DNA from: a virus
Lineage: Duplodnaviria; Heunggongvirae; Uroviricota; Caudoviricetes
Virus record (IMG/VR): IMGVR_UViG_2623620502_000007
Length of the DNA stretch: 35,017 nt
Strand: one strand, 5' to 3'
Shown here: positions 1,507 through 34,699 of the stretch, one piece after another
Layout: each line of letters begins with the position of its first letter
Numbering within the stretch: position 1 is the stretch's first letter
Notes under the pieces: model-generated
Database searches by the model: none
Told to the model about the DNA's origin: nothing
What the model saw: only the letters and a program-made list of their open reading frames with translations
Position numbers and translations under genes: made by a program

Positions 1507-1533
1507 AATCTCCCTTACACGGGCTTATTTTTT
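1507..1533. repeat. att core, left junction (27 bp, exact copy of 34514-34540)
   Basis: aatctcccttacacgggcttatttttt occurs identically at both prophage ends; it is the reverse complement of the P2 att core as I recall it. Confidence 0.85.
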
Positions 1534-1934: not shown

Positions 1935-3098
1935 TCACTCGTCATCTTCTGTTTCGTACTCCACATCAGAAAGCCTGACCTCAAGCTCCAGGGACGTCGT
2001 GAAGCCGCTATTATTCAGAAAATGTGTCACCTTAGTGATTGTCCAGTCCTGCTCGTCTATGACGCGCTTAAAGCCTGACACTTTGACCGGTGTTTCCGTG
2101 TAAATATCTGCACGACCGGTAGCCAGGCTGATGGAGAACTCCGCAACGCCCCGTTGCAGTTTATCCCACTTCGCCTGAGCGGCGCGCATGGCCTGCGCTT
2201 TCGTGGCATATACCGTGGTCAGGGCAAAAACATTGTCAGCCTCACCGGCCATGTATTCACCTTCGCGCGCTTCCGGTACTTTTGGCGCTTTCTTCTGCGT
2301 GACCGGTTTCGCTTTCGGGGGCTCCAGTGCGCGCAGGTGTTTCTCTTTCTTTTTGCGTTTCAGTTTTACCTTCTGCTTTTGTGGCTTCGGGTCTTTGGTG
2401 TGTAACCACTTTGCCGTTACGCCTGTGTAGGCTCCACGGTCAGCAATCGCAAAATGATGACGGTCGCCGTCGCTGCGGGTGATGGTAATCTGCGGGATTT
2501 TTTTACCGCTGGCCGTCACCCCCTGCCCCGCTTTGAGAAACAGCAGTTTTCCCATTTTTACCGACACCTCACCGCCGTTGCGTTCAGCAAGACGGGTCAG
2601 GAATTTCGCATCGGACTCCTGCGACTGGTCGATGTGCGGGATTTTAATTCCGGCCAGTGACGGAGCGACACTGGCTTCCAGCCTGTTACGGGAGGCAATC
2701 GCCTCAACAATCGCACCGAGCGTGGTGTCATGCCAGGAGCCTTCCCGGCGGGAATTGAGCGTGCCACGAAAATCTGCACTCCGGGCGCGGATGGTGACCA
2801 CATCCGGTGCGCCCCGGTGTTCAACCTCATCAACGGTGAATTTCCCCTTGCATACCAGGGCAAAACCTTTCCAGCCGATATACACCGTCAGGACAGCGCC
2901 ACGAACCGGCAGCCCGACCTGCCCGTCGGCATCGTTCAGTTCAATATCAAGCTGGTCAGCCTCAAAGCCCCGGTTATCCGTCAGGGTCATGCTCATCAGA
3001 CGGTCACTGATATTGCCGGTAATATCCCTGCTGTCGAGCATCAGCATGTAATCCGGCGTCAGCGTACTGCCTGCATCAAATGTCAGCGCATCCAGCAT
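1935..3098 (-). CDS. D: Tail protein gpD (387 aa)
   Basis: Position and length identical to P2 D; N-terminus MLDALTFDAGSTLTPDY; follows U in the tail operon. Confidence 0.88.
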   Translation of the reverse strand: MLDALTFDAGSTLTPDYMLMLDSRDITGNISDRLMSMTLTDNRGFEADQLDIELNDADGQVGLPVRGAVLTVYIGWKGFALVCKGKFTVDEVEHRGAPDVVTIRARSADFRGTLNSRREGSWHDTTLGAIVEAIASRNRLEASVAPSLAGIKIPHIDQSQESDAKFLTRLAERNGGEVSVKMGKLLFLKAGQGVTASGKKIPQITITRSDGDRHHFAIADRGAYTGVTAKWLHTKDPKPQKQKVKLKRKKKEKHLRALEPPKAKPVTQKKAPKVPEAREGEYMAGEADNVFALTTVYATKAQAMRAAQAKWDKLQRGVAEFSISLATGRADIYTETPVKVSGFKRVIDEQDWTITKVTHFLNNSGFTTSLELEVRLSDVEYETEDDE

Positions 3099-3577
3099 TA
3101 TCTCGCCCCCGTCATCCCCGTGAATCTGGTCGCCATACTGCCAGCCTTACCGATGAGCGATTCCGCCTGTTTACCGATATCGCCATAAAGCGCGGCCAGT
3201 GATTCATCAACGCGGGTGAGCGACAGCGTAAAATCAATTTTCCGGGGTGTGCCGTCTGCAAAGAAAATACTCCCTGTTTCACTCACCCTGCTGATGACAT
3301 ACATGCCGTAAATCATGCCGGTGCCATCCAGCAACGGCCACGCCCGGCCTTCCTCTGCCATCAGCCTGAGCGTGGTCATCGTCAGCTTCCCGCCGGTCAG
3401 TTCGGGATAAAGCACGCCGGCAAGCGTCATGTTTTCCTCACCCACACCGAGAAACTGAAAGGCATCCCGTTTACCGATACGGGAATTTGACGGCCAGCGA
3501 TAATCTGATTCGCGCTGCATGGTCTGGTGTGGCAGCGTCTGGCGCATAAAAACAAACATACCTAACGCGAGCATCAT
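3098..3577 (-). CDS. U: Tail protein gpU (159 aa)
   Basis: Synteny and length match P2 U; stop overlaps the D start. Confidence 0.85.
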   Translation of the reverse strand: MMLALGMFVFMRQTLPHQTMQRESDYRWPSNSRIGKRDAFQFLGVGEENMTLAGVLYPELTGGKLTMTTLRLMAEEGRAWPLLDGTGMIYGMYVISRVSETGSIFFADGTPRKIDFTLSLTRVDESLAALYGDIGKQAESLIGKAGSMATRFTGMTGAR

Positions 3578-3591
3578 TTTTCGTCACCTCC

Positions 3592-6039
3592 TTAACCGTC
3601 ATGCATCATGCTGGCACGGGCGCGCGCACGTTTATCCCGCTCGTATTTTTCGAGCGCATCCTGTAACTGGCGGTCGAGCTGAGTCCCCGGCGCAGTACCG
3701 CCCGTCAGACTGATGTGATATTCGTTTTTACTCTGGTCCACATAAGAGCGGCCAGCCGGTGCCGTAACCGGCTGATAAGCCTGATAGCCTGCATAAGAGC
3801 TGGTCGCCGGAATATAACCACCGGTGCCATACGTGGCGGCATGAGTTCTGGCGGCAGTCTGGTCAAGTGCGTCAGACTCTTTGTTGATAACACCGAGTTT
3901 TTCCAGTACCCAGTCAATACCACTGCGCAGTTTGTTGAACGCACTAAGCGGCAGCATCAACGCGTCAGCCAGTGCCTGCCCGAACATGACGCCCGTGTCA
4001 CGGCAACGATTCAGGGTGTCCTGGGTGGCTTTGACCGGAGCAATCAGGTTTTTAAACCACTGCCACGCGGCCTGTAACTTTTCACCCAGCCAGTCAAACA
4101 CCGGTTTAAGTGGCGTGAACAGTTCCCCCACCGGCGCAAATGCCGCTTTCAGCCCTTCCACCACACCGCCAAAGAATGCGCTGACAGGCTCCCAGTATTT
4201 ACGGATAAGCAACGCCCCGGCGACAATGGCGGCCACCACGGCCACAACCGGCCAGCTAATCGCCCCGATGGCCGTCATAACAGCACTGCCAACCGTCGTG
4301 AAGATTGCCCCCATTGCGCCTGCTGCCGCGATGATGGCATTGATGCCGGTGATAACCGGCCAGGCTACAAGACCAATGGCACCGATGATGCCAGTAAGTG
4401 CCAGCGCGCCACCGGCAATGAGGCCAATGGTTGACGCCAGTGATTTGTTTTTCTGGATCCAGCCGTCGAGTTTTAACACATACTTTGTGGCCGTCTGCGT
4501 GAGCTTACGCAGTGCGCCTTCCTGCTGGTCAAACAGGTCAGTCCCCACCGCCTCATAAGCGGACTGAAACTCCTTAAAGTCACCGCCGAGGTTGTCCTGC
4601 ATGATATTTACCAGCTCTGCGGTCTTCCCGTCTGAGGCTTTAAACGCAGCGGTCAGTTTGTCCAGCTTTCCGGTTGAGGCGGCAGTCATCAGCACAGCGG
4701 CGGCTGAGCTGGCCTCCTCCCCGAAAATGGTTTTCATGTATTCAGCCTGCTGGGCAGTACCGAGCCGGTTTTTCTCAAAACTGGCCTGCATTTCTTTCAG
4801 AATGGTAAATACTGGTCGGGTGTTTCCCTTGCTGTCTGAGGTTTTCACACCAAGCTCTTTCAGTGCATCCCATGCTTTTCCCGTCGGTGCCTGCAGGCGG
4901 CTTAACACGGCACGGCTTCCCGTCCCCGCCATTGAACCGGTAATTTTTGCGTCATGCAGCGCCCCGACCATTGCGGCGGTTTCTTCAATGCTGACACCGG
5001 CATTTTTTGCCACTGGTGCGGCATAGGTCAGCGCATCGCTCATACCGTCAAAATCGGCGGCGGTTTTGTTCATCGTCATGGAGAGAACATCCCCGATATG
5101 AGCGACCTTATCGTTTGAAAGCTGAAAGGCGGATTTCATCCCCATCAGCAGGGCGGCGTTTTCTTCCATCGTGCGGCGGTTCGCCAGCGCCATATTCAGC
5201 GTGACCGGCGTTGCCGCCTGAATGGCATCAACATCCCCACCGGCTTTCGCAATGATAATCTGCGCACCGGCAGCATCATCCGCCGAGGCGGCAGTATTGT
5301 CGCCGAGCTGGCGCGCCTGTTTGCGGAGCGCGGCCATTTCGGCGGAATCTTTTGCCACACCGAGCACAGCCTGCAATTCTGAGTTTTTCTGCGCAAACTC
5401 ATAACCGGGCATCAGCAGCTTAACTCCGGCCATCGTTCCCGCCGCCGCAATCCCCACACCGGCAGCGCCCACTGAGGCCATATTTCCGGCAAGTTCTTTT
5501 CCTGCCTGATAACGCTGTTTGACTGCGTTAAGTTTTGCCTGTTGTGCACTGACACGCGCCAGCGCGTCACGCTGCCGGTTAAGCTGTGCGGTGGTTTCAC
5601 TGATACGGTTTTTCAGCCCCTGCTCATCATGTGCAAGATTGCGGGTATTAATTCCCACAGCGGCCAGTTCCCGCTGCTGGCGTTTAACGGAATCCGTCAG
5701 GCGGTTATATTTCGCCTGTAAGTCCTCCGCCGCACGCTTTGCGGATTCCAGCACTTTCGCCTGAGCACGGGTCGGACGTTCAGTGTTTTTAAACTGTGTG
5801 GCAAGTGCTTCGGCCTCCTGCCGTGCCTTTTCAAGTGCATGACCAGTCACGGCGAGCTGTGCACTGGTCTTGCGAAACCCCTCAATACGGGATGCCTGAC
5901 CGTTCAGCTCGCGCAGTGATTTTTGTGTTTCCCGGATATCCCCCGACAGCGACTTACTCGCTGTGCGGATGGATTTAAACGGGCGGGATGCCTGGTCAAC
6001 AGCCCTGAGCAATACCTGTAATTTTACATTGTTACTCAT
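3592..6039 (-). CDS. T: Tail tape measure protein gpT (815 aa)
   Basis: Long Ala/Gly-rich coiled-coil N-terminal region and hydrophobic Gly/Ala-rich central segment typical of tape measure proteins; length equals P2 T; lies directly downstream of E/E'. Confidence 0.9.
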   Translation of the reverse strand: MSNNVKLQVLLRAVDQASRPFKSIRTASKSLSGDIRETQKSLRELNGQASRIEGFRKTSAQLAVTGHALEKARQEAEALATQFKNTERPTRAQAKVLESAKRAAEDLQAKYNRLTDSVKRQQRELAAVGINTRNLAHDEQGLKNRISETTAQLNRQRDALARVSAQQAKLNAVKQRYQAGKELAGNMASVGAAGVGIAAAGTMAGVKLLMPGYEFAQKNSELQAVLGVAKDSAEMAALRKQARQLGDNTAASADDAAGAQIIIAKAGGDVDAIQAATPVTLNMALANRRTMEENAALLMGMKSAFQLSNDKVAHIGDVLSMTMNKTAADFDGMSDALTYAAPVAKNAGVSIEETAAMVGALHDAKITGSMAGTGSRAVLSRLQAPTGKAWDALKELGVKTSDSKGNTRPVFTILKEMQASFEKNRLGTAQQAEYMKTIFGEEASSAAAVLMTAASTGKLDKLTAAFKASDGKTAELVNIMQDNLGGDFKEFQSAYEAVGTDLFDQQEGALRKLTQTATKYVLKLDGWIQKNKSLASTIGLIAGGALALTGIIGAIGLVAWPVITGINAIIAAAGAMGAIFTTVGSAVMTAIGAISWPVVAVVAAIVAGALLIRKYWEPVSAFFGGVVEGLKAAFAPVGELFTPLKPVFDWLGEKLQAAWQWFKNLIAPVKATQDTLNRCRDTGVMFGQALADALMLPLSAFNKLRSGIDWVLEKLGVINKESDALDQTAARTHAATYGTGGYIPATSSYAGYQAYQPVTAPAGRSYVDQSKNEYHISLTGGTAPGTQLDRQLQDALEKYERDKRARARASMMHDG

Positions 6040-6459
6040 TCGTGTTTCCGCTTCGCCGGAGCGCCTTTTCGCGCCATGTGATGAGTTCGGTCAGGCTCAT
6101 GGGATACAGTTCTGATGGCGGCCAGTGAAATATCACTGCCACATCCGCCATCAGGTCATCGACCGAGAGATTTTTCGGAAACGTCACTGCACCGAGTTCG
6201 GCGACAAAAAACCGACCACCTTACCGGCCAGCGCCACAAGGTCAGGCAGTTCCAGTGCGGCGACTTCCTGCTCGGTCAGCATCGGTGCCGTCATGCGCGG
6301 CAACACCTTAATCAGTGCATCGACTTCGGAGTTTGCGACCGCTGCCAGACTGACACCGCGCAGCGTCCCGGCACTGGGTTTCATCAGCGTGACCTGTTCG
6401 ATAACCTGCTCACCACGTTTGACCGGATTGTCCAGGGTAATCACATTTTCTTTGTTCAT
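6032..6459 (-). CDS. E': Tail assembly chaperone gpE+E' (142 aa) made by programmed -1 ribosomal frameshift at 6205-6211
   Basis: After a -1 slip on GGT TTT TTG the reading frame stays open for 57 further codons (VAELGAVTFPKNLSVDDLMADVAVIFHWPPSELYPMSLTELITWREKALRRSGNTNE) and stops at TAA overlapping the T start (ATGAGTAA). Total 142 aa equals P2 E+E'. Confidence 0.8.
6184..6459 (-). CDS. E: Tail assembly chaperone gpE (91 aa, zero-frame product)
   Basis: 91-aa ORF immediately upstream of T, ending ...VGFLSPNSVQ; contains the TTTTTTG slippery heptamer 7 codons before its stop. Confidence 0.85.
   Translation of the reverse strand: MNKENVITLDNPVKRGEQVIEQVTLMKPSAGTLRGVSLAAVANSEVDALIKVLPRMTAPMLTEQEVAALELPDLVALAGKVVGFLSPNSVQ
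6205..6211 (-). other. Slippery heptamer TTTTTTG (minus strand) for the E/E' -1 frameshift
   Basis: Plus strand reads c-aaaaaa at 6205-6211; on the minus strand this is TTT TTG in the E frame. Confidence 0.8.
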
Positions 6460-6515
6460 GGTTTTCTCACTTATGAATCGGGGTTAACCGGTCAGCCAGG
6501 CTGACCGGATGAAAA

Positions 6516-7034
6516 TCACAGGCCGATATTGCGGCGGTGTTGCTCCAGCCGGTCGACGCCGTTCACCTTCTCAATCATGTTGATGGTGTCGATTTCGACC
6601 AGCTCCTTACCGTCCATCGTCAGCCGGAAATAGGTGCAGACCACGGAGATTTTCGACTCGGTGTCTTCTCCCTGTTTACCCTCGCCGGTGTCGATTTCTT
6701 TCTGACGTCCACGCATGACCACCTCGACGGCCACCGTTTCGCCGGTATCGTCACGCTGGTAAGAGCCTGCAAAACGAATCGGCACAGCATCCACACCGGT
6801 TGCGGCGTAAAGCTCCCAGATAACCGAATCCGGGAAGCCCCCGAGCGACCACTCCATTGACAGCGCATCGTCATCAAGGCCGAGGTCTACCGGTGCGCTG
6901 CCGTTCATTCCCGCACCGCGATAGTTTTCGAGCTTACGGGTCAGTTTTGGCAGCGTGACGGACTTTGCAACGCCCTGATAGCTGTAGCCGTTCAGAAAGA
7001 CGTTCATTAACTTGAGTTTGCGCGGCATTGCCAT
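6516..7034 (-). CDS. FII: Tail tube protein gpFII (172 aa)
   Basis: Synteny (between FI and E) and length match P2 FII. Confidence 0.88.
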   Translation of the reverse strand: MAMPRKLKLMNVFLNGYSYQGVAKSVTLPKLTRKLENYRGAGMNGSAPVDLGLDDDALSMEWSLGGFPDSVIWELYAATGVDAVPIRFAGSYQRDDTGETVAVEVVMRGRQKEIDTGEGKQGEDTESKISVVCTYFRLTMDGKELVEIDTINMIEKVNGVDRLEQHRRNIGL

Positions 7035-7046: not shown

Positions 7047-8237
7047 TTAATTGCTGTTAACCGAGGTGACCAGATTTGCCAGGTATTTATCGGTAATACG
7101 CTGGCGCAGGGTCAGGTTTTCGAGAGGAGGCACCGGTGTATAGTCGTAGTCGATATACAGTTTTCCGGCCTTGAGGGTTTCCGCATCGTTGGATTCTTCG
7201 CTGAACCAGCAGGTCGCATCCACGATATAGCCGTTTGTTTTCAGCTCTCGGAATTTGGCATTGATGCCATCAACGATGTCGCGAATCAGCGTTGCGGTGA
7301 TGGGCTTGTCCACCGCCCACATGTGCGCCTCAGCCATCGTGTCGGCCAGCACCTGCGCGGTGCGGGTGTAGTTTTCAAAGAGGAACAGCGGGTCATCAGA
7401 GCAGGTACGGTTACCCCAGAAGCGGAAACCGTCACGGCGAATCAGCGTTGTGACGCCTGACTCATTCAGCAGGTCAGCATCGGTGCCGGACTCCTGCAAA
7501 TCCCAGAATACAGATGCGCTGATGCCGGTAACACCGTTCACCCCAACGTTGGACAGTGTTTTATGCCAGCCCTGCTCCTGGTCGATTTTAGCGCGCAGAC
7601 CCAGCGCACGGGCGGTGGCATACGCGGTGGCGGTGGTACTGGTGACCGTATCCCATGCGAGGAAATCCGGCCAGATGACCATCAGCTCACGCTGGCTGAA
7701 ATTCTGGCGGTAGGCTTTCACCTCGGAAATGGTCTTACAGCCCCATGCGCTGATATATCCGAAAGCGCGCAGCTTCTGACAGACGGATGCCAGTGCAACA
7801 GCCACCTCTTTGGTGTCCAGTCCCGGCACACCGAGAATACGCGGTTTAACACCGGTTACCGACTCTGCCGCCAGCAGGGCTTTCAGTCCGGTGTACTGAC
7901 CGTTTTCGTCGGTGGTGCCGATGATATTGGAAACGGTCTGCGCAAGTTTCGTTTCTTCGTCGTCGCCGGTGCCGTCCTCCACGCGCACAACAACGGTAAC
8001 CGGTTTTGACTGGTCGGCGATGGCCTGCAACGATGCCGCCAGCGTGCCTTTTTTACCGGCCTTTGCAATTGCGCTCTGCACATTGGTAATCAGCACCGGT
8101 TTATTGATGGGGAAGGTTTCCGCATCCGCATCGCTGGCCGTGCAGACCATGCCGACAATGGCTGTGGATACGGTGGAAATGACGCGGGTGCCGTCGTTAA
8201 TCTCCAGCACCTGCACGCCGTGATGATAGTCACTCAT
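7047..8237 (-). CDS. FI: Contractile tail sheath protein gpFI (396 aa)
   Basis: Length identical to P2 FI; N-terminus MSDYHHGVQVLEINDGTRVISTVSTAIVGMV; first gene of the FI-FII-E-T-U-D operon. Confidence 0.9.
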   Translation of the reverse strand: MSDYHHGVQVLEINDGTRVISTVSTAIVGMVCTASDADAETFPINKPVLITNVQSAIAKAGKKGTLAASLQAIADQSKPVTVVVRVEDGTGDDEETKLAQTVSNIIGTTDENGQYTGLKALLAAESVTGVKPRILGVPGLDTKEVAVALASVCQKLRAFGYISAWGCKTISEVKAYRQNFSQRELMVIWPDFLAWDTVTSTTATAYATARALGLRAKIDQEQGWHKTLSNVGVNGVTGISASVFWDLQESGTDADLLNESGVTTLIRRDGFRFWGNRTCSDDPLFLFENYTRTAQVLADTMAEAHMWAVDKPITATLIRDIVDGINAKFRELKTNGYIVDATCWFSEESNDAETLKAGKLYIDYDYTPVPPLENLTLRQRITDKYLANLVTSVNSN

Positions 8238-8330
8238 CCGTTTAACTCCGTGGTTAATGGGTGCAACTATTTTCCGTTGGGTAGTACATGAGACGCTATT
8301 TGACCTGGCTGGTCAGTGGATGAAACAACA

Positions 8331-8360
8331 GATAAAGAAAAGGCGGGCAATCTGCCCGCC
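8331..8360 (-). terminator. Rho-independent terminator on the minus strand, between the cargo gene and FI
   Basis: Hairpin ggcgggca-atc-tgcccgcc (8342-8360) followed on the minus strand by TTTTCTTTATC. Confidence 0.6.
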
Positions 8361-8592
8361 TGTCCTGATTTGTACACACTCATTTTCCGACTGACAATTT
8401 ACATAGCCAAAATGCTATCAAATCTGACAGCCTGTTTTGAGCGAAGAGGAACCTGAGATTGTGGTATGCTAATTTATGGGGAGCAGGTCAATTGTATTAG
8501 TTATCTTTTTGCCTTTCTTTATCCCATTTCTTTACAGTGGTCTGATACCACTCTTCACGTGTTCGTTATTCCTCTGCTCTGTCACTTGAATT

Positions 8593-9189
8593 TTAGTTGT
8601 CTGTTTTAATTTTTTTGCTTCCCTGGGAAATCGGCCTCCAGTCTTCTCTAATATTTTTCATCTGCTCAGCTATCTGTGTCATTGGACTCCTTGCACCTAA
8701 GTAGCTAACCCCCTCGAAAGAAGCCATATCATAAGAATACTCATTCCGCTCTCTTTCAGTTGAGCCCGGCTGTTTAGACCAGCTAATACTAACAGAATAA
8801 ACTTGATCTTTAATCTGGTCATACTTACAAAGACTGCTGTTGAGGGAATGGCCGTTTTTCAATACGCTAACCTTGCTAAATGGTATACCTTTATTTTTTC
8901 TATGTTCTGCATTAACCAGTGGGGGATTAAATCCGACTTCAATATCATAGGCTGGGGCATTTCCGGTATTAGCAATATTGATATCAAAATAAAAAGCAGC
9001 CCAAGAATTTGGTTCAAGAGTCACAACGACATGAGGTTGAACTGATGCGTCAACCATCCTTTTTGTCTCGTCTGCTAATAGCCTTGTTACTCTCCACAAG
9101 AAAAATGTAGCAACTGCTGTTAGCAATGCTGCCAAAGCGGAGATAAGTGTACTTACTGTGTTTATATGCTCTGCGATAAATTCGATCAT
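8593..9189 (-). CDS. Hypothetical membrane-anchored protein (198 aa), cargo in the FI/G slot
   Basis: AT-rich ORF with a Shine-Dalgarno-like AAGGA upstream; predicted single N-terminal transmembrane helix (VSTLISALAALLTAVATFFLW) followed by a roughly 165-aa soluble domain; no family recognised by eye. Confidence 0.6.
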   Translation of the reverse strand: MIEFIAEHINTVSTLISALAALLTAVATFFLWRVTRLLADETKRMVDASVQPHVVVTLEPNSWAAFYFDINIANTGNAPAYDIEVGFNPPLVNAEHRKNKGIPFSKVSVLKNGHSLNSSLCKYDQIKDQVYSVSISWSKQPGSTERERNEYSYDMASFEGVSYLGARSPMTQIAEQMKNIREDWRPISQGSKKIKTDN

Positions 9190-9641
9190 GAGTTGTCCTT
9201 GGGGGCGTACTAATTGTTTTCAATACTAAAATAGCGCCGGGCTTGAAAAATTGCACACTTATGGTTCGATTTACCTCAACAGTTAAGGCTTCAACTTCCC
9301 CCATGCACCTCACCCAGCCCAAGACTGTATGAGGTCTGACAAAGAACTTCCTGACACTTGAAAACGAGGCAACGGCTAGGGTTTCTCGTAGGGCAAGGAT
9401 TGAATACGAAGCCTGTATATTGCTCCGCGAACGCTGCTGAGGGCAGTTTAAATGTTGGGCGTTTATGTAGCCTTTCACTCACCAGCATGAGTTCAATGTC
9501 TGTGAGTTACCGACAACAATATAAAGGGGGTGGCATCATCATATATCCAAGCTAGAGTCAAATCCTCTAACTGGTTTTATGATCAGTGTCAATTGTTTGA
9601 TTATTGAACGTTTACGAAGCAGCACGGGAGCCATATAACTA

Positions 9642-9860
9642 ATGGGCAGGTATAAGCCTGTATCACGAGGAATCAGTAAAATGGCTGATGATAAGACCAA
9701 AATCGGTACCCCTGACAATGATTTAATAAGTATCAAACAGGATTACGAGAGACGTGATTGGGCTGAAAAGTTTGGAGTTAGCGAGACCAAACTTGTTCAA
9801 GCCGTACAGGCTGTAGGTCATTCGGCTAAGAAAGTACAGGCATGGCTTAAAGACCATTAA
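9642..9860 (+). CDS. Small hypothetical protein (72 aa; 59 aa if started at the internal ATG 9681), possibly DUF3606-like
   Basis: ORF in the AT-rich cargo region; the internal ATG at 9681 has the better RBS (GAGG about 10 nt upstream); the motif DYERRDWAEKFGVSETKLVQAVQAVG resembles DUF3606-type small proteins from memory. Confidence 0.5.
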   Translation: MGRYKPVSRGISKMADDKTKIGTPDNDLISIKQDYERRDWAEKFGVSETKLVQAVQAVGHSAKKVQAWLKDH

Positions 9861-9912
9861 TATATGAGCGCCTTTCTAGGCGCTTTTTTCTTTGTCCTTT
9901 GGGGGATGATTT

Positions 9913-10191
9913 ATGGCTAATAATTTATTTATTACTTACGACCTCATTAAAACGAAAGATTATGCGGCTGTGTATGATGCAATTAAATCTTTAGGAAATT
10001 GGGCTTTAACAACTGAATCGAACTGGTATGTTAACTGTAGTTACTCTGCCGAGGATGCAGCCAAAATTGTGAGGGCGATCATGGATAGTGATGATAAGCT
10101 TATTGTTGTAGACGCAACCAATAACTCAGCTTATTGGTACAATCTCTCAGATGAAGTTAGTAACCAAATTCTGACTGAGTGGAACAAGTAA
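9913..10191 (+). CDS. Small hypothetical protein (92 aa), cargo in the FI/G slot
   Basis: Strong RBS (GGGGGA 7-9 nt upstream of ATG), AT-rich codon usage, followed by a hairpin terminator; no family recognised. Confidence 0.6.
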   Translation: MANNLFITYDLIKTKDYAAVYDAIKSLGNWALTTESNWYVNCSYSAEDAAKIVRAIMDSDDKLIVVDATNNSAYWYNLSDEVSNQILTEWNK

Positions 10192-10196
10192 TTAAA

Positions 10197-10220
10197 GGGG
10201 GTGGGTAGCCCCCTTTAATT
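10197..10220 (+). terminator. Weak rho-independent terminator after the 92-aa ORF
   Basis: ggggg-tgggtag-ccccc stem-loop followed by tttaatt. Confidence 0.5.
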
Positions 10221-10411
10221 CAGAAACCATCATGATTGAAACATTAAATATACTGGGTTAATTCTTTCATCCTTGCTCCCTTGCTATATGTCCTGAAAGC
10301 GTCCTTTTTAGCCTTCTGCTCAGTATGTCCGGTAATGGCACAGAGCGGACTGCCAGATTAGGCTTTACTCTGTGCCATAGATATGTAATCTCACACCAGA
10401 GCTTATACAAC

Positions 10412-10942: not shown

Positions 10943-13153
10943 TTATACCTGCGCCACGTTGTACCATGTCCCGTTAATGTATTTCTGAACCGGTCTGTAA
11001 TATACGCCACCAATGTTATCGGCAGAGTTTGAGCCGGTATCCTGAACAATAATGCCGGTATATACACACCCGGACGGTGCCTGATGTGTCCATGTCATGC
11101 CATTGTTCGCAGGTTTGTATGTGGCGGCACCACCAAGTCGGATATCCCGGACATAGCGGGAGTCAAAATTGCTGAAATTTGATGGTATCACCTGCCCGGT
11201 AACCCGTAGTGCATCAGGCTTAAGCGTCATCAGATCTTTTGTTGTGCTGCCAGACCTGATGCGCCATTTAAAATATTCATTGCCATTATCACCAGTTTCA
11301 AACCACATGTATGAGTCAGAATCAGCATCTGAATCATTTTTAAATCCAATTTTCGCCCAGTCAGTGTTTCTTTCCCAAATCAGGAAGGCATCATTGATAA
11401 ATTTTATGCTGCCTGACATGCTTCCGCCTGATAATGCCAGAGCAAGAATATCCGCAGGTGTTGGCTTTCGTGATGTGGTATAAAACTCTGACCAGTCAGC
11501 CTCAAATCCATACCCATCACGTGCCGACCTGTAAAAAATCCCCCTGTTTTTATAATCCACAAGAAACTGCATTGCCGGACAACTTCCCTCACCCGTGTAA
11601 AAATGCAACACCATTTTTGATGCTCCGCCATCCTGTGCACAATAAGCACCACTGTCCCAGTTCCATCCTACCGCTTTATTATTTGCAACCGTATTTCCTG
11701 TTTTCCCTAATGCAAAAGCCGGTTGCTTATTTTTCGTATTGTAGTCGCGTCGCCAGCCCGGCGCATAATCAGCTCCGTGATTGATATACGTGAATTGCGC
11801 ACTGGTGGTACCACCACCGCTTGATGTACTCGGAGTGGTCACACGAATGGTCATTGCTGCTTTAACGCCCATAACCTCAATCACGCAACCTGCAAGATGA
11901 ATAGTCCCACAGTCAGTATCGGTAATAATTTTGTTATTACCATATGACCAGGAACACTTGCACATCCAGTAAGGATGATTAAAGGCTCCCTGAGACTCTA
12001 GCCAGTCAATAAACTGAGCGGTTGTCCAGTTTCCGGCTTCAGTGCTCAAAGCGCCGCTATAAGCACGACAGGCACCGATATTTTTCGTGAAGGTATCCTT
12101 TCCCGGAATATCCGCACCGTTCTGATCTTTCTGAAGACGTTTTTCAGCATTGTCATAGGCAGACCTCACCGCTTTTGGTGTTGCGGCCAGCGTTTCTGAA
12201 TCGCTGTTGGTGGCGCTACTGAGCTGGACAAGCCCTTTTCGCGCCGTGGTGGCATCCTGTGCGGTATATTTCCCGTTAGCGAGGTCATATGCTGCCTTTA
12301 CCGCCTTTGGCGTTGCCGCAAGCGTTTCAGAATCGCTGTTGGTGGCGCTACTGAGCTGAGCAAGCCCTTTTCGCGCTGTGGTGGCGTCCTGTGCAGTGTA
12401 TTTCCCGTTAGCAAGGTCATATGCTGTCTTTACTGCTTTTGGCGTTGCGGCGAGCGTTTCAGACGTGCTGTTAGTCGCACTACTGAGCTGAACAAGGCCT
12501 TTTCGCGCCGTGGTGGCATCCTGCGCAGTATATTTCCCGTTAGCAAGGTCATATGCGGCCTTTACCGCTTTCGGCGTTGCGGCCAGTGTTTCAGACGTGC
12601 TGTTGGTCGCACTGCTTAACTGAGTAAAACCTTTTGCGGTCAGCGAGGCGTCCGGGTGACGTCGTGACTGTTCGTGCTCTGCAATTTTGTCATCAACGTA
12701 ATCCTGCGTCGCCATCACCGTTGTGGTGTCAATGGTCAGCGCCACTGAGGCCACACTGCTGACGATGATGACCATGCGACAGGTCTGCGAACGCCCTGAG
12801 CCTTCGGCAAGAGCTGGCTTATAACTTTCGGCCATGTTCGCCACGGCAATTAATGTTCCCGCATCATCGTACAGGCCAAGCTCACGCATCCAGAAACCGC
12901 CCACCTCCGGCGGAATAACCAGCTCTGCGATAATATAATTACTGTTTCGTTTGTCCTGACTGATTTTGTTCAGCGCATGTCGCCAGACTTCGTGGATAAG
13001 CCCGGTCTGTCCGGCATCCGGGACAGGCAATTTACCACCGCCATCCCCGACGGCCATCGTGGTAATGTTGACCTTCCGCCCTCCCGGTGCGGTTGCCGCT
13101 GCCAGCTTTGCTGCACCGGCAGTGGTGATAACGGTTTTGAATTTTGTGCTCAT
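10943..13153 (-). CDS. H: Tail fibre protein gpH (736 aa) with internal tandem repeats and a divergent C-terminal receptor-binding region
   Basis: N-terminus MSTKFKTVITTAGAAKLAAA is typical of P2-family H; about 3.7 tandem copies of a 44-aa unit; C-terminal half is lower-GC and Cys-containing, unlike the N-terminal part. Confidence 0.88.
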   Translation of the reverse strand: MSTKFKTVITTAGAAKLAAATAPGGRKVNITTMAVGDGGGKLPVPDAGQTGLIHEVWRHALNKISQDKRNSNYIIAELVIPPEVGGFWMRELGLYDDAGTLIAVANMAESYKPALAEGSGRSQTCRMVIIVSSVASVALTIDTTTVMATQDYVDDKIAEHEQSRRHPDASLTAKGFTQLSSATNSTSETLAATPKAVKAAYDLANGKYTAQDATTARKGLVQLSSATNSTSETLAATPKAVKTAYDLANGKYTAQDATTARKGLAQLSSATNSDSETLAATPKAVKAAYDLANGKYTAQDATTARKGLVQLSSATNSDSETLAATPKAVRSAYDNAEKRLQKDQNGADIPGKDTFTKNIGACRAYSGALSTEAGNWTTAQFIDWLESQGAFNHPYWMCKCSWSYGNNKIITDTDCGTIHLAGCVIEVMGVKAAMTIRVTTPSTSSGGGTTSAQFTYINHGADYAPGWRRDYNTKNKQPAFALGKTGNTVANNKAVGWNWDSGAYCAQDGGASKMVLHFYTGEGSCPAMQFLVDYKNRGIFYRSARDGYGFEADWSEFYTTSRKPTPADILALALSGGSMSGSIKFINDAFLIWERNTDWAKIGFKNDSDADSDSYMWFETGDNGNEYFKWRIRSGSTTKDLMTLKPDALRVTGQVIPSNFSNFDSRYVRDIRLGGAATYKPANNGMTWTHQAPSGCVYTGIIVQDTGSNSADNIGGVYYRPVQKYINGTWYNVAQV
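12140..12634 (-). repeat. Intragenic tandem repeat in H: about 3.7 copies of a 132-nt (44-aa) unit
   Basis: Protein repeat KG[FL]xQLSSATNS[TD]SETLAATPKAVKxAYDLANGKYTAQDATTAR at aa 174-217, 218-261, 262-305 and a partial fourth copy; near-identical at nucleotide level. Confidence 0.85.
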
Positions 13154-15579: not shown

Positions 15580-15645
15580 AACGGGAAGGATGCCGCCGGG
15601 TCATACCGGCGGCAATGTAACGATGAGGTGTCGGGAATGGCACAA

Positions 15646-25012: not shown

Positions 25013-25063
25013 CGCCCGCTTCGTGGGGCAGTTTTAATGCATATGAATGTAAATTTAGAAACC

Positions 25064-25091
25064 ATACCAAGCCTAGATATAGGCTTGGTAT
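25064..25091. terminator. Perfect 12-bp inverted repeat hairpin (ataccaagccta-gata-taggcttggtat); candidate bidirectional terminator
   Basis: Lies 50 nt downstream of the minus-strand kinase operon stop and just past cos; T-rich tract tttatt follows on the plus strand and the minus-strand flank is moderately U-rich. Confidence 0.45.
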
Positions 25092-25140
25092 TTATTCAGG
25101 AATTGTGAATGCAAAATAATGCAAGAATATGCATTATTTA

Positions 25141-26202
25141 CTACTTAGCCTTGATAACTGGATGAGCCCGGTCATGGCCCCCTCCCAAGAACTTTGAAAA
25201 AATCACCTTATCATTACTCACTGGTTTACTACCATACACACTATCGTAATGAAAAAATACTTGTGGTTGGTTTGGTATACGAATGAAACCATAAGCTAGT
25301 CTAGTATCACCTATTACTCCTTCTTCTCTATTACAAACCGGATAGCATAATTGACCACATAATGACACGAGCTCATCTGCAGTGGGGCGTTTAGAAGGGT
25401 CTAGATTTAAACATTTTTCAATTATATCTATAATTTCATTTGCCAGCGGAGCAAACTGCTTATTTGACTTAATAAAATCAGGATATTGAGTATGCTTTCC
25501 AGATAAGATGTTCGGAATAGCCATATACCCTAATCCAAAAGGATACTCTCCCGTGAGGATTCTGAACATCATCGCACCTAATGCCCAGACATCAGATGGT
25601 TTTGAAACTTGCCCCTGACTTTGTATAATTTCCGGGGCCATATATGGCAATGCCCCCATAGCTGTTTGAGATGAAGTAATCGATCCTTGCCCATTCTTTG
25701 CGGCCTCATCAATTTCATCACCGGCCATTTTTGAAATTCCAAAATCGGTGATTTTAACACCTGTAGCACTAACTCCTCCAATAACCATTATGTTAGAAGG
25801 TTTGAGGTCTCGATGTATTACATCCACATGATGGGAAGCCGAAAGAGCCTTCGCTAAGTTATGAAATATCTTTGCAGTCAAGTAAGGATCAACACTTGTA
25901 TAGCTACTCAACAATGCTTTATCCAGATCTACTCCATCGATAAATTCCTCCGTTAAAAATTCACGTCCATCTTCGGCAAAATAATCTAATGTTTTAGCGA
26001 CGTTAGGATGGTTGACCCTAGATGCTAAAATAGCACTTCTATGGAATCGTTTTTCAGCAGACTTATTTTTAGGGGTCTTAAGAGCAACTTGCCTATTTAA
26101 TATCTTATCATTCGCAAGGTAAACCTTTTGCATCCCCCCCTCACCAATTTCGCTGATAATAGTATAACGATTTATATTAGTCCCAGGAACCAACTCAATC
26201 AT
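25141..26202 (-). CDS. Hanks-type Ser/Thr protein kinase with C-terminal OB-fold-like extension (353 aa), third gene of the cargo operon
   Basis: Kinase motifs IGEGGMQKV (Gly-rich loop), VALK, HRDLKPSN, DFG, APE, DVWALG; start ATG overlaps the upstream kinase stop (ATGA) with GGAGG 7 nt upstream; AT-rich. Confidence 0.85.
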   Translation of the reverse strand: MIELVPGTNINRYTIISEIGEGGMQKVYLANDKILNRQVALKTPKNKSAEKRFHRSAILASRVNHPNVAKTLDYFAEDGREFLTEEFIDGVDLDKALLSSYTSVDPYLTAKIFHNLAKALSASHHVDVIHRDLKPSNIMVIGGVSATGVKITDFGISKMAGDEIDEAAKNGQGSITSSQTAMGALPYMAPEIIQSQGQVSKPSDVWALGAMMFRILTGEYPFGLGYMAIPNILSGKHTQYPDFIKSNKQFAPLANEIIDIIEKCLNLDPSKRPTADELVSLCGQLCYPVCNREEGVIGDTRLAYGFIRIPNQPQVFFHYDSVYGSKPVSNDKVIFSKFLGGGHDRAHPVIKAK

Positions 26203-27263
26203 AACACAACCTCCGGATGAGAAAGATCAAATGTGATAAATATACGTTTTGTAGTTGTTCTTCCGGCAGGGCCAAGTATTATCACGCATGAGCTAGGCAA
26301 TAAATTTCGTTTTTTAGCCCTAATATTATTAACATAGACATCCCCTGATATATCTGAAATATAAAACTCGGAACCAGAGTAAGTAATTTCCACACTACCC
26401 ACCCCTGGATTGTTATAAGACTCCGTCTTGTGTGTAGCTGAGAGCACTACTGGTTTTTTATTATCAGATATAAGCAATGCTCGATGAGAGTTGTGCAATA
26501 ATATTTTTTTCAAAACATCGCAAACATCTTTCATAGGGGGCCTAGCTTGAGGATTTGCATCAAGACATTTGAAAAACAATTCCTTTACAATACTTGGTAA
26601 TTTTATTACCGACAAATCAAATGGATTAGATGTCAGAATCTTAGGGTAACGGGTCAATTCATCTGGGACAGGGGTTTTAGCTAAGCACATTGCTGTAACA
26701 GCAAAGGCATATGTATCAATTGCTTTAGTAAAGTCTACGTTCTGCAAATACAACTCAGGAGCTGCAAAAATTGGGGTACCTTTAAACCCAATTGTTTTTG
26801 CATTATCTATTTTTCTTGACAAGCCAAAATCATATATTTTTACAAGCCCTTCTTTATCAATCTTCATATTCCCAGGCTTTATATCACGATGAATGATATC
26901 ATGTTCATGTATCTCGCAAATACCTGATGCTATTTGCCACAAAATCTTAATAAGCTCCCCTACTGTAGTAATTTTATTATTAACTTCATTCAACGATGGA
27001 CCATCGATAAACTCTTCAACAATTGCAAGATTGCCTTCAGCATAATTAATCACATCAAACAGTTCAACAACATGTTTTGAACGTAGTGTCATTAGAGCAG
27101 CCAACTCGTCTTTCATTCGCTCTGTATCTGATGGATCATTTATAGTCTTTATTGCAACAAATCTCTCAAGATGAGAATCGCGGCATTTGATTACACTACC
27201 AAATCCCCCTAAATCAGGATCCCCAACCACTTGATATCTTTCTGGGAGAAAATCACTCATCAT
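26199..27263 (-). CDS. Hanks-type Ser/Thr protein kinase with uncharacterised C-terminal domain (about 354 aa), second gene of the cargo operon
   Basis: Motifs LGGFGSV, VAIK, HRDIKPGN, DFG, APE; start taken at the ATG preceded by AAGGAG with 6-nt spacing (the six-frame ORF begins 2 codons upstream at 27269); overlaps the phosphatase stop. Confidence 0.85.
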   Translation of the reverse strand: MMSDFLPERYQVVGDPDLGGFGSVIKCRDSHLERFVAIKTINDPSDTERMKDELAALMTLRSKHVVELFDVINYAEGNLAIVEEFIDGPSLNEVNNKITTVGELIKILWQIASGICEIHEHDIIHRDIKPGNMKIDKEGLVKIYDFGLSRKIDNAKTIGFKGTPIFAAPELYLQNVDFTKAIDTYAFAVTAMCLAKTPVPDELTRYPKILTSNPFDLSVIKLPSIVKELFFKCLDANPQARPPMKDVCDVLKKILLHNSHRALLISDNKKPVVLSATHKTESYNNPGVGSVEITYSGSEFYISDISGDVYVNNIRAKKRNLLPSSCVIILGPAGRTTTKRIFITFDLSHPEVVL

Positions 27264-28449
27264 CACCATCTCCTTTTATTGAATTCCTTTCAAGGAATGA
27301 CATGTCAAGCTGTGAAATACAATCAAGTCTATTATTTTTATTTAACCCATTTTTTTTCTCATCTAATTCCTGAAGAGATTTATTCTTATTTTTTGTTCTT
27401 GCCTTTCTTTTTGTTGTTGCTTTGTTTATATCGCTAACGACTGAATCAGTATTTTTTTTGTTTGACACTTTTCTAACACCAGAAGTGCCTTTATTATTTT
27501 TTTCAAGCTCAACTGTATTTAAAGGCTCTAATGAAGATGACTTATTCGGCACGCTAATGACTTTTAATTCACCAAATGGATCCCAGAGATTTATTACATC
27601 TCCAGATGAAACATCTAACTCTTTTAGAGTATTAAAAAGGTCTATAACTGCTATACTTGCATTGTCGAAACCACCAAACCAACTAGCAAGATCAATAACC
27701 CGCCTAGAATAAACACCTAGATTCGCCGAGTGCACATATAACTTTCTTAAATTATCCTTACCGATAGAATGCGCACCATCAGAACTTAAAATAATTACGC
27801 CACTCTCCAAGGCTTGGATATGATGAAAGTGTATTTCCAATGTGCCATCTATGCCTATAAATTGTACTAATTCACCACCAAAGCGTAAATCAATATCCTG
27901 TGGATCCATATTTAGATGATTATTATACTTTTTGGCTAAGGCAACTAAAGTATCGTCCTCGCTCAACTGAGTAGTTTCTTCATGCGAGACATAATAAATA
28001 CGGCTATCACCTACATTTACTGCGGTAATATTATCATCATCTTCTAAAGCTATCGCTGATAATGTCGCCCCTCCATTACCCTTATATACATTCAAAACAG
28101 AATCATTCGCTTGTAGCACAGCTTTCTCAAGACAAGAACGTATTGGTAAATGAGAATTTCTTATTATTTCAGTAAAAAATGTAGATAAAGTTAAAGATGC
28201 TGCATTGGCACCCCCCTCCATCCCCCCCATACCATCGGCTAACGCAACAACAACGATATCTTTAGCTTTGCTACTTGGGCGGAATTTCAATATAGCAACC
28301 CTATCTTGGTTTTCCTTCCGTACCAACCCAATGTCAGTAGCTATAGCCACTGGTAAGGTTGAGACACGACGCACTGAGGATGCTATATTTTTTCGATGTA
28401 GCCATCCGTGAATATGCTCATGAAGGATTTCGTAAGAATCACGGCTCAC
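27253..28449 (-). CDS. PP2C (PPM) family Ser/Thr phosphatase with Lys/Asn-rich C-terminal tail (398 aa), first gene of the cargo operon
   Basis: PP2C signature motifs ENQDR, ALADGMGG, VGDSR, SSDGAH, DNAS; GTG start 4 nt after AGGAGG (an in-frame ATG one base upstream runs straight into TGA); AT-rich. Confidence 0.82.
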   Translation of the reverse strand: MSRDSYEILHEHIHGWLHRKNIASSVRRVSTLPVAIATDIGLVRKENQDRVAILKFRPSSKAKDIVVVALADGMGGMEGGANAASLTLSTFFTEIIRNSHLPIRSCLEKAVLQANDSVLNVYKGNGGATLSAIALEDDDNITAVNVGDSRIYYVSHEETTQLSEDDTLVALAKKYNNHLNMDPQDIDLRFGGELVQFIGIDGTLEIHFHHIQALESGVIILSSDGAHSIGKDNLRKLYVHSANLGVYSRRVIDLASWFGGFDNASIAVIDLFNTLKELDVSSGDVINLWDPFGELKVISVPNKSSSLEPLNTVELEKNNKGTSGVRKVSNKKNTDSVVSDINKATTKRKARTKNKNKSLQELDEKKNGLNKNNRLDCISQLDMSFLERNSIKGDGDDE

Positions 28450-28579
28450 ATTACCTCCTAGTTACTTTGATAGACCAAAGAGTTAGCTTACAAAAATAGA
28501 GCGGAAATGCCTAGTGTTTCAATCGATTTTTGTGAGAATTGGTTATTTAATAACTATATAAAAACATTGGAATTTACCA

Positions 28580-34513: not shown

Positions 34514-34540
34514 AATCTCCCTTACACGGGCTTATTTTTT
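34514..34540. repeat. att core, right junction (27 bp, exact copy of 1507-1533)
   Basis: Identical 27-mer; the right copy is followed by one extra T. Confidence 0.85.
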
Positions 34541-34699
34541 TATGCATAAGCCCTATCTCTGGTAACCGTCTTCCATTGACCACATCGATAGAATCTCCCT
34601 TCATAGCACGATGCCTTTCACGTAACGGCATCGTGCTCGCACAGGTTCCGGCTAAGCACAACCAGAACGCGCATGTTTGACGCTTACCAAAAAATATTC

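What the first reader, a model, noticed from the sequence alone, without database searches (positions are those of the whole stretch)
6032..6459. Programmed -1 ribosomal frameshift producing gpE+E' with the stop embedded in the T start
The E reading frame contains TTT TTG seven codons before its stop. A -1 slip opens a 57-codon extension ending at TAA within ATGAGTAA, the T initiation region, giving a 142-aa fusion, exactly the size of P2 E+E'. This is the conserved tail-assembly chaperone frameshift (analogous to lambda G/GT) and shows the tail operon is intact.
Basis: partly seen in the sequence, partly recalled or inferred. Interest (0 to 1): 0.4.

Follow-up and report, generated by a model that had tools for sequence, protein, structure and literature searches.

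The report
Phage P2 E/E+E' tail frameshift
This is the already well-known programmed -1 ribosomal frameshift of phage P2's tail-assembly gene E, sitting in a P2-type prophage whose E and E+E' proteins are letter-for-letter identical to those of P2, so it is real but ordinary.

Summary
It lies on the minus strand. Gene E (6459..6184, 91 aa) carries an in-frame T_TTT_TTG heptamer (6211..6205) at codons 84-85. A -1 slip there opens 57 further codons that end at TAA 6034..6032, inside ATGAGTAA, where ATG 6039 starts the 815-aa tape-measure gene T. The fusion is 142 aa.

The 428-nt region is 98.6% identical to phage P2. All six differences are synonymous, so both proteins are 100% identical to P2 gpE and gpE+E'. 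The P2 GenBank record annotates the same join and frameshift site.

The T-run is invariant in 11 diverged Peduoviridae and in 80 IMG/VR loci. The extension matches Pfam PF06528 (Phage_P2_GpE) and evolves as coding sequence in the -1 frame. The alternative GTG start that RefSeq uses for a separate 51-aa CDS is not conserved.

I found no convincing stimulatory RNA structure. FI, FII, E, T, U, D and ogr are all full length, and the window holds a complete P2-like prophage bounded by attP-core repeats.

Verdict: already known, low interest. The frameshift itself was not measured here. The frameshifting and its roughly 10% frequency come from the P2 literature.

The parts
6184..6459 (-). Gene E, 91 aa plus TGA. 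Tail assembly protein, Pfam PF10109 Phage_TAC_7. 100% identical in protein to P2 gpE.
6205..6211 (-). Slippery heptamer T_TTT_TTG, in frame (GG[T TTT TTG], codons 83-85 of E). Homologous to the frameshift site annotated in P2.
   Evidence: T-run invariant in relatives:
6032..6205 (-). E' segment: 57 codons in the -1 frame starting by re-reading G6205, plus TAA 6034..6032. Its C-terminal part matches Pfam PF06528 Phage_P2_GpE (E = 1.2e-21).
6032..6459 (-). E+E' fusion CDS, complement(join(6032..6205,6205..6459)), 142 aa, identical to P2 gpE+E'.
6032..6039 (-). ATGAGTAA: T start codon (6039..6037) overlapping the E' stop (6034..6032). The ATGAGTRR overlap is present in all but 2 of 41 distinct relatives.
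3592..6039 (-). Gene T, tape measure protein, 815 aa (PF10145). 11 aa differences from P2 gpT.
6516..7034 (-). Gene FII, tail tube, 172 aa, identical to P2 gpFII. Upstream neighbour of E.
7047..8237 (-). Gene FI, tail sheath, 396 aa. First gene of the F operon.
1935..3577 (-). Genes U (3577..3098, 159 aa) and D (3098..1935, 387 aa), the distal genes of the F operon, both full length.

Best explanation
The region is the E / E+E' gene pair of a P2-type (Peduovirus) prophage.

Most ribosomes translate E from ATG 6459 to TGA 6184 and make the 91-aa gpE. A minority slip back one nucleotide on U_UUU_UUG (6211..6205), probably with tRNA-Phe on UUU in the P site and tRNA-Leu on UUG in the A site. They then continue for 57 codons in the -1 frame to UAA 6034..6032, making the 142-aa gpE+E'. 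The fusion shares gpE's first 85 residues and carries the GpE-family C-terminal domain.

By analogy with lambda gpG/gpGT, the two proteins would act as tail-assembly chaperones in a ratio fixed by the slip frequency. They would act on the tape-measure protein gpT, whose gene starts 8 nt before the E' stop.

Shown here: the anatomy, identity to P2, conservation of the T-run, and coding constraint on the -1 frame. Taken from the literature on the identical P2 sequence: that the frameshift occurs. The roughly 10% frequency and the essentiality of E' are recalled from the abstract of Christie et al. 2002, which I could not retrieve. Inferred: the chaperone mechanism, and the exact codon or tRNA at which the slip takes place.
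For: - Anatomy confirmed.
- 98.6% nucleotide identity to P2 over 428 nt. The last 235 nt, including the slip site and all of E', are identical. gpE and gpE+E' are 100% identical to P2's.
- The P2 record annotates E, a joined E+E' ('-1 frameshift; essential tail protein') and the frameshift site at the homologous base.
- Literature: P2 frameshifts at TTTTTTG to give a 91-aa E and a 142-aa E+E' (PMC3091744). E' lacks a ribosome-binding site, extends 37 nt back into E and overlaps T (PMC3931495). Both statements hold in the window.
- Pfam: PF10109 on E, and PF06528 only on the -1 extension. PHROG tail families match both parts.
- The gene pair lies between the tube and tape-measure genes.
- Conservation: TTTTTT is invariant in 11 phages from about 7 Peduoviridae genera at 63% mean column identity. 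Every one has a 55-58-codon -1 extension ending at or next to the T start. Third-position invariance in E is 1 of 75, yet both third positions in the T-run are invariant.
- All 80 IMG/VR loci (41 distinct E' sequences) keep the run: T6G in 39 distinct sequences and T6A in 2.
- The -1 frame shows excess third-position variation both before and after its internal ATG.
Against: - No expression data exist for this window; the frameshift is inferred from identity to P2.
- U_UU.U_UU.G is not among the intrinsically efficient -1 motifs in E. coli reporter assays. Heterogeneous ZZN codons such as UUG shift less than UUU or UUC (PMC4066793).
- I found no convincing stimulator. The alignment fold has a covariation term of about 0. 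The window's own MFE structure (z = -3.5) is only marginally better supported than shuffles in relatives.
- The bare sequence signature is not rare (7 of 148 ORFs).
- RefSeq/PGAP annotates E' as a separate 51-aa CDS rather than as a frameshift product.
Confidence: 0.93

Rival explanations
1. E' is translated on its own, as RefSeq/PGAP annotates it. Initiation would be at GTG 6187, which overlaps the E stop (GTGA) and gives a 51-aa 'GpE family phage tail protein', or at the conserved internal ATG of the DDLMAD motif, giving about 39 aa. No frameshift would be involved.
For: - ORF listing finds a 51-aa GTG ORF at 6187..6032.
- PGAP annotates exactly this CDS in E. coli M217 and labels it 'GpE family phage tail protein' in all 12 listed hits.
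- Several phage records annotate a 39-44-aa CDS starting at the internal ATG.
- The GTGA stop/start overlap could allow termination-reinitiation.
Against: - The GTG is not conserved. Relatives have ATT, ATA or GTA at that position, while the T-run is invariant.
- The -1 frame shows a coding-type substitution pattern upstream of the internal ATG.
- The published description of P2 says E' lacks a ribosome-binding site (PMC3931495).
- Recalled from the abstract of Christie et al. 2002, which I could not retrieve: fusion polypeptides showed translation of E' as a -1 extension of E.
- PHROG 1756 aligns across the junction (residues 82-142).
Confidence: 0.03
2. The fusion arises from transcriptional slippage. 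RNA polymerase adds one extra U in the U6 run, so a subset of mRNAs encodes E+E' in a single frame. The product would also be 142 aa but would have Phe instead of Leu at residue 85.
For: - The slip site is a homopolymer run.
- The run, not the seventh base, is what is invariant: T6G, T6A and T6C all occur.
- Relatives in Stenotrophomonas and Xanthomonas carry a longer T7 run (PMC3931495).
- Homopolymeric heptamers are avoided in E. coli genes, possibly because of transcriptional slippage (PMC4066793).
Against: - From general knowledge: appreciable slippage by E. coli RNA polymerase needs runs of about 8-9 or more, and 6 U is short.
- The run is always in the X_XXY_YY register relative to the E frame in all 12 aligned genomes. 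Ribosomal slippage requires that register; transcriptional slippage does not.
- The literature treats the event as translational.
Confidence: 0.03
3. This is a variant of the main mechanism: a P-site-only slip. tRNA-Phe would slip from UUU to the overlapping UUU while the A site waits for the relatively slowly decoded UUG. The -1 frame codon UUU is then read, so residue 85 is Phe and the GenBank-style join (Leu85) is wrong by one residue.
For: - UUG in the A site is a poor tandem shifter in E. coli (PMC4066793).
- The seventh base varies (G, A or C) among relatives while T6 is invariant. That fits a mechanism depending mainly on the U-run.
Against: No direct evidence either way. The annotated join in P2 assumes tandem slippage after Leu. 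Tandem slippage is the general model for X_XXY_YYZ heptamers (PMC4066793).
Confidence: 0.12
4. The overlap is a chance ORF arrangement with no expressed -1 product in this prophage, that is, a decayed or cryptic element.
For: The bare signature is found in 7 of 148 ORFs of the window.
Against: - Protein identity to P2 is 100%, and all 6 nucleotide differences in E are synonymous.
- There is a strong Pfam hit on the extension.
- The arrangement is conserved across Peduoviridae.
- The prophage is complete, with both att cores and intact late genes.
Confidence: 0.01

Closest known systems
Bacteriophage P2 genes E and E+E' (GenBank AF063097 / NC_001895; Christie, Temple, Bartlett & Goodwin 2002, J Bacteriol 184:6522)
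   Same: Everything that can be read from sequence is the same. That covers the position between FII and T, the 91-aa and 142-aa products (100% identical), the T_TTT_TTG site at codons 84-85, E' reaching 37 nt back into E, and the ATGAGTAA overlap with T.
   Different: There are only six synonymous nucleotide differences in the first 225 nt of E. The surrounding prophage differs from P2 in its accessory-gene slots and its tail fibre, but not in this feature.
Phage lambda G / G-T tail assembly chaperone frameshift (Levin, Hendrix & Casjens 1993; Xu, Hendrix & Duda 2004, 2013, 2014)
   Same: The logic is the same. There are two overlapping ORFs between the major tail or tube gene and the tape-measure gene. 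[quoted passage not shown] The review PMC5009743 describes G/GT binding the tape measure and recruiting the tail tube protein.
   Different: There is no detectable sequence similarity: Pfam finds only PF10109 and PF06528, not the lambda G or T families. The heptamer differs; lambda uses G_GGA_AAG (from general knowledge). P2 has a contractile tail with a sheath. The chaperone biochemistry has been shown for lambda, not for P2 or this prophage.
E/E+E' homologues of other Peduoviridae (Burkholderia KS5/KS14/KL3, Stenotrophomonas Smp131, enteric 186-like Eganvirus and others)
   Same: They share a conserved T6G (or T7G / T7C) site, a -1 extension of about 55-60 codons carrying the (D/E)xMADIAxxFxW...WR motif, and an end at the tape-measure start.
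   Different: E has variable N-terminal extensions (91-130 aa). The E stop lies 6-16 codons after the slip site. In Burkholderia phages the E' stop does not overlap the T start.

Membership tests
P2 gpE / gpE+E' programmed -1 frameshift pair | Sequence homology of the 0-frame product to gpE and of the -1 extension to the GpE (E') domain. | tested here: met
   100% amino-acid identity to P2 gpE and gpE+E'. PF10109 E = 1.5e-12 on E. PF06528 E = 1.2e-21 on residues 104-139 of the fusion only.
P2 gpE / gpE+E' programmed -1 frameshift pair | Location between the tail tube gene (FII) and the tape-measure gene (T) in the FI-FII-E-E'-T-U-D operon. | tested here: met
   The gene order FI, FII, E/E', T, U, D is collinear with P2, and all genes are full length.
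P2 gpE / gpE+E' programmed -1 frameshift pair | An in-frame slippery heptamer (T_TTT_TTG) inside the overlap, with the -1 frame open from the heptamer to the end of E'. | tested here: met
   The heptamer is at 6211..6205 in X_XXY_YYZ register and is the only one in E. The -1 frame is open from 6220 to 6035. The T-run is invariant in relatives.
P2 gpE / gpE+E' programmed -1 frameshift pair | E' has no conserved start codon or ribosome-binding site of its own. | tested here: met
   GTG 6187 is replaced by ATT, ATA or GTA in relatives. No Shine-Dalgarno motif is evident upstream of it. The literature states that P2 E' lacks a ribosome-binding site. An internal ATG (the Met of DDLMAD) is conserved, but coding constraint extends upstream of it.
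P2 gpE / gpE+E' programmed -1 frameshift pair | Both products are actually made (roughly 10% frameshifting) and E' is essential for tail assembly. | not testable with these tools
   This is known for P2 from Christie et al. 2002. The paper is not held; it is summarised. The frequency figure is from my memory of the abstract.
Lambda-type G/GT tail assembly chaperones (functional class) | Two-ORF -1 frameshift arrangement immediately upstream of the tape-measure gene. | tested here: met
Lambda-type G/GT tail assembly chaperones (functional class) | Sequence membership in the lambda gpG / gpT protein families. | tested here: not met
   The Pfam scan of E and E+E' at E <= 0.01 returns only PF10109 and PF06528. 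This is an analogue of lambda G/GT, not a sequence homologue.
Lambda-type G/GT tail assembly chaperones (functional class) | The short and long forms bind the tape measure, the long form recruits the tube protein, and both are absent from virions. | not testable with these tools
   Described for lambda in PMC5009743. No solved structure of a relative exists.
Stimulated -1 PRF signals (dnaX / IS911 / IS3 type) | A conserved downstream hairpin or pseudoknot at 5-9 nt, or an upstream Shine-Dalgarno-like element at about 6-17 nt. | tested here: inconclusive
   - The window's MFE structure has z = -3.5, but it starts 11 nt after the heptamer.
- The alignment consensus has a covariation term of -0.03.
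- The named structure is 70.6% paired against 68.5% in shuffles, 16/500, which is within what unstructured related sequences give.
- An SD-like AAGGUGGU ends 4 nt upstream. It is common in enteric relatives, but synonymous variants that break it exist.

The most novel reading that the evidence does not exclude
U_UUU_UUG is a comparatively poor -1 shifter in E. coli reporter assays, and no canonical stimulator is evident. The reported efficiency of the P2 site might therefore depend on an unrecognised context element. One candidate is the SD-like UAAGGUGGUC (6223..6214), at an unusually short spacing upstream. Another is the extended downstream structure that contains the 10-bp CUGAUGGCGG/CCGCCAUCAG helix (6154..6145 with 6121..6112). 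Alternatively the slip could be a P-site-only event that places Phe rather than Leu at residue 85. Any of these would refine the mechanism of a textbook site but would not change what the element is.
Probability: 0.12. Interest if true: 0.25.

Novelty: already known. Interest (0 to 1): 0.05.

Why it matters
It matters little scientifically. This is a copy of an experimentally characterised recoding site, and the same 428 nt occur in 1,582 of 5,426 complete E. coli genomes.

The practical value is for annotation. RefSeq/PGAP and many phage records split E+E' into 'phage tail assembly protein' plus an orphan 39-51-aa 'GpE family phage tail protein'. The correct feature here is complement(join(6032..6205,6205..6459)) with ribosomal slippage.

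Together with the full-length FI, FII, T, U, D and ogr genes and the intact att cores, it also supports the view that this prophage can probably still build tails.

Tried and rejected
1. **Downstream stimulatory RNA.** I folded 6215..6100 (z = -3.5), ran RNAalifold on 10 relatives (covariation term about 0) and counted pairs for the window's MFE structure. Support is marginal. The structure starts too far from the heptamer, or in the case of the small CGCCG/CGGUG hairpin too close to it. I rejected it as evidence, which agrees with the published statement that P2 has no such hairpin.

2. **Upstream SD-like element.** It is present and common in enteric relatives. It is not conserved in Yersinia YenM42.18 or the Burkholderia phages, and synonymous variants break it in some IMG/VR loci. 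I left it as an untested lead.

3. **Independent start at GTG 6187.** Rejected because the GTG is not conserved.

4. **Retrieving Christie et al. 2002.** The paper is not held, whether requested by DOI or by PMC id. I relied on the GenBank annotation and on two papers that summarise it.

5. **Other database searches.** PDB sequence search with the fusion found no relative. NCBIfam scan found no model hit.

6. **Chance test of the bare pattern.** It is not rare, so I did not use it as evidence.

7. **Side check of other in-frame heptamers.** These are A_AAA_AAG in orf78 leading into B, and A_AAA_AAC in orf82 leading into orf83. Both are identical in P2. The orf78 heptamer is absent from the only diverged relative found, so it is probably incidental.

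The large protein-database searches, structure prediction and the metagenome and genome scans were deliberately not used, because the answer did not need them.
Full report
**Observation**

The feature is on the minus strand.

- Gene E starts at ATG 6459 and stops at TGA 6186..6184, giving 91 aa.
- Codons 83-85 are GGT TTT TTG. T_TTT_TTG (6211..6205) is therefore an X_XXY_YYZ heptamer in register with the E frame. It is the only such heptamer in E.
- Re-reading G6205 in the -1 frame gives 57 codons (VAELGAVTFPKNLSVDDLMADVAVIFHWPPSELYPMSLTELITWREKALRRSGNTNE) and then TAA 6034..6032.
- That TAA lies inside ATGAGTAA (6039..6032). ATG 6039 opens an 815-aa ORF, 6039..3592.
- The fusion is 85 + 57 = 142 aa.
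- The -1 frame is open for only three codons upstream of the heptamer. It reaches 37 nt back into E, which matches the published description of P2.

**Is it more than chance?**

The bare pattern is not. I looked for an in-frame slippery heptamer in the last 20 codons followed by at least 40 open codons in the -1 frame. It occurs in 7 of 148 ORFs of at least 60 aa in this window. Most of those are spurious ORFs or genes with ATGA overlaps. The evidence has to come from homology and conservation, and both are decisive.

**Identity**

Megablast of 5900..6600 finds 82 phage records. Phage P2 itself matches at 98.3%, and at 98.6% over the 428-nt E+E' span.

In the pairwise alignment with P2 (AF063097), the last 235 nt are identical. 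That stretch includes the heptamer, all of E' and the T start. The six differences in E are all synonymous. gpE and gpE+E' are therefore 100% identical to P2's.

The P2 record annotates three things at the homologous base:

- E;
- a two-piece joined CDS 'gpE+E'; shares amino terminus with gpE; -1 frameshift; essential tail protein';
- a misc_feature 'site of -1 translational frameshift'.

Lynch et al. 2010 (PMC3091744) state that the P2 frameshift occurs at TTTTTTG and gives a 91-aa E and a 142-aa E+E'. Chang et al. [quoted passage not shown]

I could not retrieve the primary paper, Christie et al. 2002. The roughly 10% efficiency and the essentiality of E' are from my memory of its abstract.

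**Protein families and context**

- E matches PF10109, 'Phage tail assembly chaperone proteins, E, or 41 or 14'.
- Only the -1 extension matches PF06528, Phage_P2_GpE (1.2e-21).
- The flanking genes are tail tube FII (PF04985), sheath FI, and a tape-measure protein (PF10145).
- PHROGs places both halves in 'tail' families. One of these (phrog_1756) aligns across the junction.
- No relative has a solved structure.

**Comparative test**

I aligned the E-to-T interval of the window, P2 and ten further Peduoviridae. They come from Klebsiella, Salmonella, Yersinia and Burkholderia and cover about seven genera, with a mean column identity of 63%.

- The six T's are invariant in all of them.
- The seventh base is G in all but one, which has C.
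- In every genome the heptamer is in register with E. The -1 frame then runs 55-58 codons, carries the motif (D/E)xMADIAxxFxW...WR, and ends at or beside the tape-measure start.
- Across the 11 non-redundant sequences only 1 of 75 third-codon positions of E is invariant. Both third positions inside the T-run (6211 and 6208) are invariant. That is synonymous-site constraint on the slip site.
- Beyond the E stop, substitutions concentrate at the third position of the -1 frame. This holds both before and after the conserved internal ATG, so the -1 frame is translated from upstream of that ATG.
- A scan of IMG/VR with the fusion alignment found 578 relatives among the first 600 candidate stretches. 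The 80 kept loci (41 distinct E' sequences, 66-100% identity) all retain the T-run at the homologous position. It is T6G in 39 distinct sequences and T6A in two. All but two of the 41 keep the ATGAGTRR overlap with T.

**Rivals**

1. *Independent initiation.* RefSeq/PGAP annotates E' as a separate 51-aa 'GpE family phage tail protein' starting at GTG 6187, which overlaps the E stop. Several phage records start it at the internal ATG. The GTG is not conserved: relatives have ATT, ATA or GTA. There is no evident Shine-Dalgarno sequence, and coding constraint extends upstream of the ATG. I regard these CDSs as annotation artefacts of pipelines that do not model the frameshift.
2. *Transcriptional slippage on U6.* This would give a 142-aa product with Phe85. 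A run of six is short for E. coli RNA polymerase (general knowledge). The strict codon register of the run in all genomes is what ribosomal slippage requires.
3. *P-site-only slip.* This would also give Phe85 and cannot be excluded from sequence. The seventh base varies while T6 does not. UUG is a poor tandem shifter in E. coli (PMC4066793).

**Stimulators**

- The 116 nt from 6215 to 6100 fold better than shuffles (-44.7 kcal/mol, z = -3.5). The structure starts 11 nt after the heptamer.
- Its strongest helix, CUGAUGGCGG/CCGCCAUCAG (6154..6145 with 6121..6112), lies about 50 nt downstream inside the most conserved protein motif.
- RNAalifold on ten relatives gives -9.6 kcal/mol with a covariation term of -0.03.
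- Pair counting for the window's structure gives 70.6% paired against 68.5% in shuffles (16/500). That is within what unstructured related sequences produce.
- The small CGCCG/CGGUG hairpin starts 2 nt after the heptamer. Only its invariant 3-bp core is kept; the outer pairs break rather than covary.
- An SD-like UAAGGUGGUC (6223..6214) ends 2-4 nt before the heptamer. It is common in enteric relatives but absent from YenM42.18 and the Burkholderia phages. Synonymous changes break it in some IMG/VR loci.

I conclude that there is no demonstrated stimulator. This agrees with the published statement for P2.

**'The tail operon is intact'**

The frameshift site alone does not show this, but direct comparison does at the CDS level.

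- FI (396 aa, 6 changes), FII (172 aa, 0 changes), E (0 changes), T (815 aa, 11 changes), U (159 aa, 2 changes) and D (387 aa, 5 changes) all have P2's length and no internal stops.
- ogr is intact.
- The window is collinear with P2 from one attP core repeat (1507..1533) to the other (34514..34540). It is therefore a complete integrated prophage.
- The region upstream of FI that carries the pF promoter and activator site is noticeably more diverged than the coding regions. It was not assessed functionally.

**Verdict**

This is the known P2 E/E+E' programmed -1 frameshift, identical in protein sequence to the type phage. The same sequence is present in 29% of complete E. coli genomes. Novelty: already known. 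Interest is low. The only practical point is that the correct annotation is complement(join(6032..6205,6205..6459)) rather than two separate CDSs.

Noticed in passing
window 1507-1533 and 34514-34540; host flanks 1-1506 and 34541-35017: Exact 27-bp copies of the P2 attP core (AATCTCCCTTACACGGGCTTATTTTTT) bracket a complete, P2-collinear prophage of about 33 kb that lies inverted in the window. The left host flank encodes a U32-family peptidase (1-1362).
   Followed up: partly
window ~25013-28711 (ORFs 25141-26202, 26199-27269, 27253-28449, all minus strand): P2's old/tin slot is replaced by three genes: two Ser/Thr protein kinases and a PP2C-like phosphatase. The kinases match Pkinase (E = 9e-47 and 1e-39) and the PADLOC defence-system models mad6 and PD-T4-6 (E down to 2e-59). 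This is a candidate anti-phage cargo in a known P2 hotspot.
   Followed up: partly
window ~8445-10326 (ORFs 8593-9189 minus, 9642-9860 plus, 9913-10191 plus): P2's Z/fun slot between tail-fibre gene G and FI is replaced by unrelated DNA. It encodes a 198-aa protein with no Pfam or PADLOC hit, a 72-aa DUF3606 protein and a 92-aa ORF with no hit.
   Followed up: partly
window 32435-32605 (minus), heptamer in ...CCG TTA AAA AAG GCT... about 10 codons before the orf78 stop: The orf78 homologue carries an in-frame A_AAA_AAG, the most slippery E. coli heptamer. Its -1 frame runs straight into replication gene B (ATGA overlap), so a slip would make an Orf78-B fusion. The sequence is identical in P2. 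It is not conserved in the only diverged relative found (Enterobacter phage ENT4), so it is probably incidental.
   Followed up: partly
window 31124-31348 (minus), ...GAA GCA AAA AAC AAA...: The orf82 homologue has an in-frame A_AAA_AAC near its 3' end, and its -1 frame continues into orf83 (ATGA overlap). The sequence is identical in P2. Conservation was not examined.
   Followed up: no
window 6214-6223 (minus): A Shine-Dalgarno-like UAAGGUGGUC lies 2-4 nt upstream of the E slip site and could pair over up to 8 bp with the 16S rRNA 3' end. AAGGTGRT is common in enteric P2-like phages. It is absent from Yersinia YenM42.18 and the Burkholderia phages, and synonymous variants break it in some relatives. 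The spacing is shorter than that known to stimulate -1 shifts.
   Followed up: partly
window 6145-6154 and 6112-6121 (minus): A perfect 10-bp inverted repeat, CTGATGGCGG ... CCGCCATCAG, lies inside E' and encodes the conserved DLMAD and WPPSE motifs. It is mostly retained in enteric relatives, with changes compatible with G-U pairs. It lies about 50 nt downstream of the slip site, too far to be a canonical frameshift stimulator.
   Followed up: partly
window 6032-6187 (minus); locus L013 573-728: RefSeq/PGAP annotates E' as an independent 51-aa 'GpE family phage tail protein' starting at GTG, without ribosomal slippage. The 428-nt E+E' sequence occurs in 1,582 of 5,426 complete E. coli genomes, so this looks like a systematic mis-annotation (seen in all 12 listed hits; CDS coordinates checked in one genome).
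   Followed up: yes
window 10943-13153 (minus) and 15580-15643: The tail-fibre gene H homologue is 736 aa against P2's 669 aa. It is mosaic, with only patches of 77-86% identity to P2 in its distal part. P2's nonessential orf30, between S and V, is absent: a 64-nt gap replaces about 940 nt.
   Followed up: no
window 8238-8340 (minus): The region upstream of FI holds the pF late promoter and its activator-binding site in P2. Beyond about -40 it is much more diverged from P2 than the flanking coding sequence.
   Followed up: no
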